From IMG/VR virus record IMGVR_UViG_2548876855_000021: a stretch of 13,469 nucleotides of DNA. One strand, given 5' to 3'. Source of the stretch: a virus (lineage: Duplodnaviria; Heunggongvirae; Uroviricota; Caudoviricetes). This document shows, one piece after another, positions 9,780 through 10,937 of this stretch. A program made the position numbers and the translations under genes. Numbering within the stretch: position 1 is the first letter of the stretch; every line of letters starts with the position of its first letter. Under the pieces are notes generated by a model that worked only from the letters and a program-made list of their open reading frames with translations, was not told the origin of the DNA and ran no database searches.

Positions 9780-10346
9780 TTAAACAGGATAAAAACCAGA
9801 GCTTCCATTCTTATTTAAGTTATGGATTTTATTTGCATCATTAATTTTTATTTGGAACGTCGGACCTTTATTCTCAAGAATTACAATCTGGAAATTATAG
9901 TCCCTTTTGATTAATGCGTGATAAAATGAATCACTGAGACTGACGCTATTAACATCCGATAGAGAACCCCCTCTATCTTTATCAAAGTGCGTCACTAATG
10001 GACTATCAAGCACAACAAATCCAATGAATGGATTCCCTTTTCTTGATAAAAATTCCGCAAAGCAAATGGTAAATATAGCATGCATTACTGCACGGGTACC
10101 TTTACCAAACATTCCTCGGCGTTTCCCATTGATATTAAAGTCATATGTATCTTCGTCAAATCGCACTTTGTTATCTTTAGAATTTTCAAAATTTATATCA
10201 TTCAAAAAGTCTTGCATCGCTATTTCTATATCATACAAATCAGCTACTGTTAAGGAGTCAAAGTCCTCGGCGGAGTATTTAAGTTCGTCAACATCATCTT
10301 CTTTATCTTGTAATGAAGATAGAATGCTATGTTTTGTGTGATCCAT
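9780..10346 (-). CDS. C-terminal head segment of an SMC/Rad50-like ABC ATPase (signature-like and Walker B-like motifs); possibly a fragment of a split or pseudogenised gene
   Basis: 188-aa ORF with ATG start overlapping an upstream stop as TAATG. MFGKGTRAVMHAIFTICFAEF followed by GFVVLDSPLVTHFD resembles the ABC signature helix then Walker B (hhhhD), but with Ser where the catalytic Glu is expected. Same reading frame as the two upstream ATPase ORFs. Confidence 0.55.
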   Translation of the reverse strand: MDHTKHSILSSLQDKEDDVDELKYSAEDFDSLTVADLYDIEIAMQDFLNDINFENSKDNKVRFDEDTYDFNINGKRRGMFGKGTRAVMHAIFTICFAEFLSRKGNPFIGFVVLDSPLVTHFDKDRGGSLSDVNSVSLSDSFYHALIKRDYNFQIVILENKGPTFQIKINDANKIHNLNKNGSSGFYPV

Positions 10347-10427
10347 TAAAAGATTGTCTTTATATTCATAAAGTGATTCAAGAGATGAATGTATTGTTTT
10401 ATATTTTTATCTTCTAACGTCTTAAAA

Positions 10428-10937
10428 TCACTTTTTTTCTGATTGATAAATTTCATTAACATCATTTTTTCTTAACATAATTAATTCATGTTCGCGAACA
10501 TTAGATCCGATTGATTCAATTAATCCTTTCAGCTGGCTTTTGATTTTCAATTTTTCTGCATTACACGACAAAAAACAATCATCATATGATATTTCATTTT
10601 CTTTTTTTTGCGGTGTATTACAGAACTCACAATAAATATCTGCAAAATTATTTAAATAGAAATTCGCCTGTGATACAACATCTATTCTTTGTAGATCTAT
10701 AAAGTATTGGTCTTTAAGAAGACTAAATCTTTCAATGAGTAATGATAAGTATTTTTCCCTGTCACTGATTGAATATAATTCATCACTTAACTCTTTTAAT
10801 AATTGCTTCTTATCATCAAGTGCATCAACAATACCTTTCAATATATCTTTCGATGATTCAATATCTTGCTCTACTTTCTCAAGTTCTCTTGAAACAATGA
10901 CTTGATCATATTCAGGATAAATTAATTGCGCTTTCAA
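10428..10937 (-). CDS. Coiled-coil segment with a CxxC...CxxxC motif (putative zinc hook) of an SMC/Rad50-like ATPase; no canonical start codon
   Basis: 169-aa ORF rich in E/K/L/Q heptad-like sequence with CEFC-X17-CFLSC in the middle. The track start is TTG with poorly spaced Shine-Dalgarno sequence; it is in frame with the upstream ORF and separated from it by a single TAA (10968-10970). Confidence 0.45.
   Translation of the reverse strand: MKAQLIYPEYDQVIVSRELEKVEQDIESSKDILKGIVDALDDKKQLLKELSDELYSISDREKYLSLLIERFSLLKDQYFIDLQRIDVVSQANFYLNNFADIYCEFCNTPQKKENEISYDDCFLSCNAEKLKIKSQLKGLIESIGSNVREHELIMLRKNDVNEIYQSEKK

What the first reader, a model, noticed from the sequence alone, without database searches (positions are those of the whole stretch)
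10346..10440. dnaX-type slippery heptamer A_AAA_AAG immediately before the stop of the coiled-coil ORF, and a +1 frame open across the gap to the next ORF
On the coding strand the middle ATPase ORF ends GAA AAA AAG TGA (10439-10428), i.e. the heptamer A_AAA_AAG followed directly by a stop. The +1 frame stays open from this A-tract across the whole 81-nt gap and ends in a TAA overlapping the ATG of the C-terminal head ORF (TAATG at 10344-10348). A single-base change in the A7 run would extend the middle ORF right up to that start, suggesting a homopolymer indel or frameshifting at this junction. The -1 frame terminates after only about 7 codons.
Basis: seen in the sequence. Interest (0 to 1): 0.5.

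Follow-up and report, generated by a model that had tools for sequence, protein, structure and literature searches.

The report
Extra A in a dead Lamassu gene
The "slippery" A7 run is a one-base insertion, carried by a minority of E. coli O157:H7 strains, inside an anti-phage ATPase gene (Lamassu lmuB) that two older mutations had already destroyed, so it is ordinary gene decay and not a frameshifting signal.

Summary
GAA AAA AAG TGA lies at 10439-10428 on the minus strand, the +1 frame is open for 81 nt, and it ends in TAATG at 10348-10344.

The window is the P4-like prophage Sp2 of E. coli O157:H7. The three "ATPase ORFs" all lie in one frame. They are fragments of a single 606-aa Lamassu/ABC-3C ATPase, lmuB, which the Sakai RefSeq record (ECs_0293) already marks as a pseudogene. 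Intact 606-aa homologues exist in Proteus mirabilis (88% identity) and Pantoea alhagi (75%).

Against those homologues the window carries three lesions:
- TTA to TAA at 10970-10968.
- A 1-nt deletion, A6 to A5, at 10404-10408.
It is A6 in FORC_044 and in Proteus, and about 305 of 309 complete E. coli records match one base shorter.

The A7 product was seen on 308 contigs, so the allele is real and not an assembly error.

The "+1 frame" is the ancestral frame for nine codons and open by chance for the rest. There is no downstream structure, no Shine-Dalgarno-like element and no conservation of the heptamer, and no single shift restores the protein. The neighbouring effector gene lmuA is frameshifted too.

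Verdict: the homopolymer-indel reading is right, programmed frameshifting is not supported, and the interest is low.

The parts
9780..11600 (-). lmuB pseudogene: a Lamassu/ABC-3C SMC-like ABC ATPase, equivalent to Sakai ECs_0293. It is annotated in the source genome as three separate CDS (10968-11600, 10428-10937, 9780-10346).
   Evidence: All three ORFs share one frame. Repairing three sites gives a 606-aa ORF that aligns end to end with 606-aa P0001 (88%) and P0002 (75%). P0001 matches PADLOC LmuB at E = 3.4e-117. The Sakai record marks it 'pseudogene, AAA family ATPase'.
10968..10970 (-). Lesion 1: an in-frame TAA nonsense codon replacing Leu211 (TTA to TAA, change at 10969).
   Evidence: Window and FORC_044 read TAT TTT TAA AAA. 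Proteus reads TAT TTT TTA AAA and Pantoea TTT CTG AAA. Leu is present at this column in all 8 aligned homologues.
10432..10438 (-). Lesion 3, the finding itself: an A7 run, which is a +1 A insertion relative to A6. It creates GAA AAA AAG TGA and stops the middle ORF at 10428-10430.
   Evidence: A6 was read directly in FORC_044 and in the Proteus homologue. About 305 of 309 E. coli records give a 79-nt match to the 80-nt query, and only H6437, ERL04-3476 and ERL05-1306 match exactly. The exact 169-aa A7 product was seen on 308 contigs and in 530 index blocks.
10404..10408 (-). Lesion 2: an A5 run, which is a 1-nt deletion relative to A6 in the intact gene. It is the frameshift that separates the coiled-coil part from the C-terminal head.
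   Evidence: O157 reads GAT-AAAAATAT and Proteus GGTAAAAAATAT. Restoring one A gives ...EDKKYKTIHSSLESLYEYKDNLLMDHTK, which matches P0001 ...EGKKYKKIHLLLESLYEYKDNLLMDYTK.
10344..10348 (-). TAATG. The TAA is the stop of the shifted frame and ends the 196-aa middle ORF in A6 genomes. The ATG is internal codon Met421 of lmuB, which annotation uses as the start of the C-terminal fragment.
   Evidence: The Met in LLMD is shared with P0001 and P0002, while more distant homologues mostly have Ser there.
11593..12051 (-). lmuC (ABC-3C middle component 2), apparently intact.
   Evidence: Pfam MC2 6e-30. PADLOC LmuC 2.5e-36. The same 152-aa size as in the intact loci.
12051..13057 (-). lmuA effector gene (N-terminal domain plus CTD6), split into 138-aa and 205-aa ORFs by a 1-nt deletion in the A-run near 12644-12650.
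   Evidence: It is a single 335-aa gene in L005, L007 and L008. The alignment gap falls at window position ~12650. CTD6 7.7e-30. The intact homologue matches LmuA at 2e-87.
7792..9370 (+). P4-satellite genes sid, psu and delta/ogr, which bound the defence hotspot on one side.
   Evidence: Annotations in Sakai and ERL04-3476. The P4 hotspot lies between psu and int (PMC9122126).
13061..13420 (-). 3' remnant of the P4-type integrase, truncated by an IS1203 insertion. It bounds the hotspot on the other side.
   Evidence: pseudo, missing N-terminus. Pfam Phage_integrase 1e-11.

Best explanation
The site is a single-A insertion (A6 to A7) in a homopolymer of an already inactivated gene. The three minus-strand ORFs are fragments of lmuB, the SMC-like ABC ATPase of a Lamassu (ABC-3C) anti-phage system. 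That system sits in the psu-int defence hotspot of the P4-like satellite prophage Sp2 of E. coli O157:H7.

Every examined E. coli copy carries two older lesions: a TTA to TAA nonsense codon at codon 211, and a 1-nt deletion in a downstream A6 run. A sublineage that includes the source of this window (ERL04-3476 / ERL05-1306) then gained one more A in the run 24 nt upstream of the deleted one.

That insertion shifts reading into a frame that hits TGA at once. This accidentally produces A_AAA_AAG-TGA and an 81-nt "gap". The open "+1 frame" is the ancestral coding frame for nine codons (SDFKTLEDK). After the A5 deletion it is an out-of-frame stretch that happens to lack stops for 18 codons, until the TAA of TAATG.

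Shown here: the lesions, their distribution among genomes and the intact homologues. Inferred: that the cause is replication slippage in an AT-rich gene, and that the fragments have no function.
For: - Same frame and positions of the in-frame stops.
- Intact 606-aa homologues with collinear alignment through both junctions.
- Nucleotide alignments showing A7 vs A6, A5 vs A6 and TAA vs TTA.
- Three of 309 records match the A7 query exactly, about 305 match one base shorter, and one (LSU61) differs by a substitution.
- In A6 genomes the middle CDS is 196 aa and abuts the next ATG.
- The Sakai RefSeq record annotates the whole span as a pseudogene inside 'prophage Sp2, P4-like phage'.
- No complete E. 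coli genome matches the repaired gene at 100%; the best is 99.9%.
- No protein closer than 88% and of full length was found in the 5.8-billion-protein search.
- The A7 product was seen on 308 contigs and in 530 index blocks, many of them draft assemblies.
- lmuA in the same operon is also frameshifted.
- LmuA/B/C assignment.
Against: - No reads, transcripts or proteomics were available, so translation of the fragments is not excluded experimentally.
- The O157:H7 clone is too young for sequence conservation to say anything about selection on the fragments.
- The per-record state of lesions 1 and 2 was read directly only in FORC_044 and the window. For the other records it is inferred from identical bit scores and from the absence of any 100% match to the repaired gene.
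Confidence: 0.92

Rival explanations
1. The A7 run is a homopolymer sequencing or assembly error in the source genome, and the true sequence is A6.
For: Only 3 of 309 complete genomes show A7. One of them, H6437, has further frameshift-type disruptions in the same 8 kb: a shorter 130-aa middle ORF and a 'frameshifted' sid gene. That is typical of unpolished long-read assemblies.
Against: ERL04-3476 and ERL05-1306 are two separate assemblies that are identical over all 13,469 nt. The exact 169-aa A7 product is recorded on 308 contigs and in 530 index blocks, most of them 10-20 kb draft contigs from many samples.
Confidence: 0.03
2. The site is a programmed ribosomal frameshift or transcriptional slippage site. 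In the -1 dnaX-like version it yields an alternative C-terminus. In the +1 version it extends the coiled-coil ORF to the TAATG and couples translation to the C-terminal head.
For: A_AAA_AAG is in the correct phase for tandem -1 slippage and is followed directly by a stop. The +1 frame is open for 27 codons up to a stop-start overlap.
Against: - The heptamer is absent from about 99% of E. coli copies and from the intact homologues.
- The downstream 81 nt fold at -5.9 kcal/mol, z = +0.36, and 127 of 200 shuffles fold at least as well.
- The upstream sequence AAATTTATCAATCAG has no Shine-Dalgarno-like element.
- The -1 product gains only VILRR.
- The gene is cut by a TAA 180 codons upstream, and a second frameshift lies downstream, so no single recoding event yields a functional ATPase.
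- AAAAAAG is common in this AT-rich locus.
Confidence: 0.01
3. lmuB works as a naturally split gene. The N-head, coiled-coil and C-head fragments are translated separately and assemble into an active Lamassu sensor, with the TAATG overlap giving translational coupling in the A6 allele. The A6/A7 polymorphism would then act as a phase switch for that coupling.
For: The Walker A motif (GGSDSGKT) and the Walker B-like motif (VVLDSP) are each intact within their fragments. TAATG is a classic coupling overlap. The tract length does vary among strains.
Against: - All homologues found that cover at least 95% of the query are single proteins of 594-621 aa.
- The middle fragment has only a TTG start, with GAGG 2-3 nt upstream, and the C-terminal ATG has no recognisable Shine-Dalgarno sequence.
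- The break at A5 replaces 19 native residues with out-of-frame sequence.
- The effector lmuA is itself split between its N-terminal domain and CTD6.
- RefSeq curators call it a pseudogene.
Confidence: 0.03

Closest known systems
Lamassu / ABC-3C anti-phage system (LmuA-LmuC-LmuB; Pfam CTD6 and MC2; reviewed in PMC10586767)
   Same: The gene order is effector(CTD6)-MC2-ABC ATPase. The intact homologues match the PADLOC LmuA, LmuC and LmuB profiles over their full length. Walker A, a long coiled coil and a C-terminal head are present. The locus sits in a mobile-element defence hotspot.
   Different: Here lmuB carries a nonsense codon and one or two frameshifts, and lmuA carries a frameshift. 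This is a decayed copy, not a working system.
P4-like satellite psu-int defence hotspot (Rousset et al. 2022, PMC9122126)
   Same: The locus lies between delta/psu/sid and the P4-type integrase of prophage Sp2, which is exactly where P4-like elements carry variable anti-phage cargo.
   Different: The cargo is inactivated. The O157:H7 FRIK944 system tested in that paper is a different one (a cytidine deaminase), so no functional data exist for this locus.
dnaX -1 programmed frameshift site (A_AAA_AAG with an upstream Shine-Dalgarno-like element and a downstream stem-loop)
   Same: An identical heptamer in the correct reading phase, with a stop codon close by.
   Different: There is no Shine-Dalgarno-like stimulator, no downstream hairpin, no conservation of the heptamer and no meaningful shifted-frame product. 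The heptamer exists only because of a recent insertion.
Homopolymer-tract contingency (phase-variable) loci
   Same: A poly-A tract inside a coding region whose length differs between strains (A6 / A7).
   Different: Neither tract length gives an intact ORF, because both alleles are OFF through the other lesions. The tract is short, and no evidence of high-frequency switching was obtained.

Membership tests
dnaX-type -1 programmed ribosomal frameshift signal | X_XXY_YYZ slippery heptamer in the zero-frame phase | tested here: met
   GA[A AAA AAG] TGA at 10439-10428 on the minus strand.
dnaX-type -1 programmed ribosomal frameshift signal | Downstream stimulatory stem-loop or pseudoknot | tested here: not met
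   The 81 nt downstream fold at -5.9 kcal/mol, z = +0.36, and 127 of 200 shuffles fold at least as well.
dnaX-type -1 programmed ribosomal frameshift signal | Upstream Shine-Dalgarno-like stimulator about 10 nt 5' of the heptamer | tested here: not met
   The upstream sequence is GAAATTTATCAATCAG, with no GGAG or AGGA-like element.
dnaX-type -1 programmed ribosomal frameshift signal | Conservation of the slippery site among homologues | tested here: not met
   A6 in FORC_044 and Proteus, and GAAAAAGAT in Pantoea. About 305 of 309 E. coli records give a match one base shorter than the A7 query.
dnaX-type -1 programmed ribosomal frameshift signal | The shifted frame gives a defined functional product | tested here: not met
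   The -1 frame adds VILRR and then stops. The +1 frame ends at TAATG, before the C-terminal head.
Lamassu LmuB / ABC-3C ABC ATPase | Full-length similarity to LmuB profiles, with N-terminal Walker A and a C-terminal head | tested here: met
   The repaired ORF is 88% identical over 606 aa to P0001. P0001 matches PADLOC LmuB at 3.4e-117 over residues 6-605. AAA_23 is found on the N-terminal fragment.
Lamassu LmuB / ABC-3C ABC ATPase | Operon with an effector (LmuA, CTD-bearing) and a middle component (LmuC / MC) | tested here: met
   CTD6 and MC2 genes lie immediately upstream on the same strand, and the architecture is the same in L005-L008.
Lamassu LmuB / ABC-3C ABC ATPase | Uninterrupted reading frame (a functional member) | tested here: not met
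   TAA at 10970-10968, A5 at 10404-10408 and A7 at 10432-10438. Annotated as a pseudogene in Sakai.
P4-like satellite prophage | Core genes int, alpha primase, sid, psu and delta, plus the CI/C4 immunity RNA | tested here: met
   Annotations. Rfam C4 at 6293-6380 (-), 84 bits. Sakai labels the feature 'prophage Sp2, P4-like phage'.
Phase-variable homopolymer (contingency) locus | Tract-length change toggles an otherwise intact ORF ON and OFF | tested here: not met
   Both the A6 and the A7 allele remain disrupted by the TAA and the A5 lesion.

The most novel reading that the evidence does not exclude
The most novel reading not excluded is that the lmuB fragments are still expressed. The A6/A7 tract would then modulate termination-reinitiation coupling at the TAATG, or low-level slippage on A7 would do so. 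The decayed Lamassu locus would keep a regulatory or partial function, for example a free head domain acting as a decoy or anti-defence factor for the satellite.
Probability: 0.03. Interest if true: 0.4.

Novelty: already known. Interest (0 to 1): 0.08.

Why it matters
The practical value is for annotation:
- The three "hypothetical protein / AAA family ATPase" CDS that PGAP calls in hundreds of O157:H7 genomes are one Lamassu lmuB pseudogene.
- The neighbouring pair of CDS is one lmuA pseudogene.
- The A6/A7 difference is a neutral lineage marker.

The case also shows how an indel in an AT-rich horizontally acquired gene can mimic a textbook slippery site. It opens no new biology.

Tried and rejected
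- Alternative genetic code (TGA = Trp, table 4). Reading through TGA meets TAA two codons later, and the organism is E. coli. Rejected.
- Experimental data from Rousset et al. 2022. They tested a P4-hotspot system from O157:H7 FRIK944, but their supplement shows it is a two-gene cytidine-deaminase system from another element, so it does not bear on this locus.
- Sequencing platform. A literature search for the source strain (ERL04-3476) gave only incidental mentions.
- A more divergent or intact E. coli copy. A sensitive blastn search with the repaired gene found only the same 310 records, all at 99% identity or more and none at 100%.
- Pfam on the middle fragment alone gave nothing. The PADLOC LmuB profiles on the intact homologue were what identified the family.

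Full report
**Observation.** On the minus strand the window reads ...TCA GAA AAA AAG TGA TTT TAA GAC GTT AGA AGA TAA AAA TAT.... The A7 run is at 10438-10432 and the TGA at 10430-10428. The next annotated ATG is at 10346-10344 inside TAATG, and the gap is 81 nt. The +1 frame reads QKKSDFKTLEDKNIKQYIHLLNHFMNIKTIF* and ends at the TAA of TAATG. The -1 frame reads VILRR*. The description is therefore correct. The heptamer itself is not unusual here. AAAAAAG occurs 11 times in the window against 6.5 +/- 2.7 expected, mostly in this 29.6% G+C locus, and the gene contains 16 A-runs of at least 5.

**What the ORFs are.** The three minus-strand ORFs 10968-11627, 10428-10937 and 9780-10346 are all in the same frame. 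They are separated only by in-frame stops: TAA at 10970-10968, then TGA, TAA and TAA at 10430-10407. The N-terminal piece carries a Walker A motif and matches AAA_23 and SMC_N. The C-terminal piece weakly matches DUF3732. The two genes upstream match Pfam CTD6 and MC2 of ABC-three-component systems. A conceptual fusion of the three pieces retrieves full-length single proteins. These include P0001 from Proteus mirabilis (606 aa, 88% identity, 100% coverage), P0002 from Pantoea alhagi (606 aa, 75%) and some thirty further full-length relatives of 594-621 aa. P0001 matches the PADLOC LmuB profile over residues 6-605 (E = 3.4e-117). The intact effector matches LmuA (2e-87) and the MC2 protein matches LmuC (2.5e-36). 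The locus is thus a Lamassu system; ABC-3C is counted within the Lamassu superfamily (PMC10586767).

**Genomic setting.** The window is 100% identical over all 13,469 nt to E. coli O157:H7 strains ERL04-3476 and ERL05-1306. In those genomes it is exactly the segment between two IS1203 copies. In strain Sakai the region is annotated as "prophage Sp2, P4-like phage", and the whole ATPase span (ECs_0293) is already flagged as a pseudogene, "AAA family ATPase". The Lamassu genes lie between delta/psu/sid and the P4-type integrase. That is the psu-int hotspot in which P4-like satellites carry anti-phage cargo (PMC9122126). The Pantoea homologue sits in the same kind of P4-like context.

**The lesions.** Protein and DNA alignments with the intact homologues define three differences in the window's lmuB.
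1. Codon 211 is TAA where Proteus has TTA and Pantoea CTG. Leu is present there in all eight aligned homologues.
2. The run at 10404-10408 is A5 where Proteus has A6. Adding one A restores ...EDKKYKTIHSSLESLYEYKDNLLMDHTK, collinear with P0001 ...EGKKYKKIHLLLESLYEYKDNLLMDYTK.

Repairing all three sites gives an uninterrupted 606-aa ORF.

**Distribution of the A7 allele.** Of 309 complete E. coli records that hold the site, only H6437, ERL04-3476 and ERL05-1306 match the A7 query exactly. LSU61 differs by a substitution. The remaining roughly 305 give a 79-nt match, one base shorter than the query.

**Is A7 real?** A7 is not a one-off assembly artefact. The exact 169-aa product is recorded on 308 contigs and in 530 index blocks, mostly 10-20 kb draft contigs from many samples.

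**Are the older lesions fixed?** No complete E. coli genome matches the repaired gene at 100%; the best is 99.9%. The protein search found no full-length relative closer than 88%. Lesions 1 and 2 therefore look fixed in the sampled E. coli copies.

**Explanation of the "+1 frame".** Beyond the A5 deletion it is out of frame and happens to stay open for 18 codons, until the TAA that overlaps internal Met421. In the window the extra A puts the middle piece back into the frame of the C-terminal piece. However, the 24-nt stretch between the two indels is then read out of frame and contains TGA, TAA and TAA.

**Frameshifting hypothesis.**
- The heptamer is in the right phase, but it is absent from about 99% of E. 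coli copies and from the intact homologues.
- The downstream 81 nt fold no better than shuffled sequence: -5.9 kcal/mol, z = +0.36.
- The upstream sequence has no Shine-Dalgarno-like element.
- The -1 product gains only five residues.
- No single recoding event could bypass both the upstream TAA and the downstream frameshift.

I reject programmed frameshifting (about 1%).

**State of the rest of the system.** The effector gene lmuA is a single 335-aa ORF in the Proteus and Pantoea-type loci. In the window it is split into 138-aa and 205-aa ORFs by a 1-nt deletion in the A-run near 12644-12650. Only lmuC looks intact. The operon is therefore a decaying Lamassu cassette. At least three of its four lesions lie in or next to A/T homopolymers, as expected for replication slippage in AT-rich acquired DNA. 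That cause is an inference.

**Verdict.** The pseudogene status of the gene is already recorded in the Sakai RefSeq annotation. What this analysis adds is the identification as lmuB/lmuA of Lamassu and the exact reconstruction of the lesions. Interest is low.

Noticed in passing
window 12641-13057 and 12051-12668 (-), break near 12644-12650: The Lamassu effector gene lmuA (N-terminal domain plus CTD6) is also frameshifted by a 1-nt deletion in an A-run. It is one 335-aa ORF in the Proteus and Pantoea-type loci. PGAP annotates the halves as 'hypothetical protein' and 'ABC-three component system protein'.
   Followed up: yes
window 1-50 and 13416-13469; L010 959-2172 and 15641-16854: In the source genome the window is bounded by two IS1203 (IS629-type) copies in opposite orientation. 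One interrupts an SDR oxidoreductase gene and the other the Sp2 integrase. Most other O157:H7 genomes have an intact 393-aa integrase.
   Followed up: partly
window 6293-6380 (-) and 6449-6526 (-): Rfam hits to C4 antisense RNA (84 bits; the P4 CI-type immunity RNA) and to isrK (71.9 bits). Both fall inside the annotated Icd-like ORF region of the P4-like element. These are expected satellite features.
   Followed up: no
L009 (strain H6437) 3539-3928 and 5931-6684: H6437 is the third complete genome with A7. It has an extra disruption that shortens the middle lmuB fragment to 130 aa, and a frameshifted sid gene. This could be extra decay or homopolymer errors in that assembly.
   Followed up: no
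window 10602-10609 (-): An A8 run (CAAAAAAAAG, coding QKKE) lies inside the middle lmuB fragment. It is longer than the flagged tract and is an equally good candidate for length variation.
   Followed up: no
lmuB alignment A1, query residues C324, C327, C346 (window ~10560-10630, -): Three cysteines (CxxC plus one more) in the middle of the coiled coil are invariant across all nine LmuB homologues aligned. This is reminiscent of a Rad50-type zinc-hook apex.
   Followed up: no
protein P0027: A 344-aa protein from a Logan assembly is 94% identical to the N-terminal third of lmuB and also carries Pfam MC2. It looks like an MC2 / LmuB N-terminus fusion, presumably another frameshift variant at the lmuC-lmuB overlap.
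   Followed up: no
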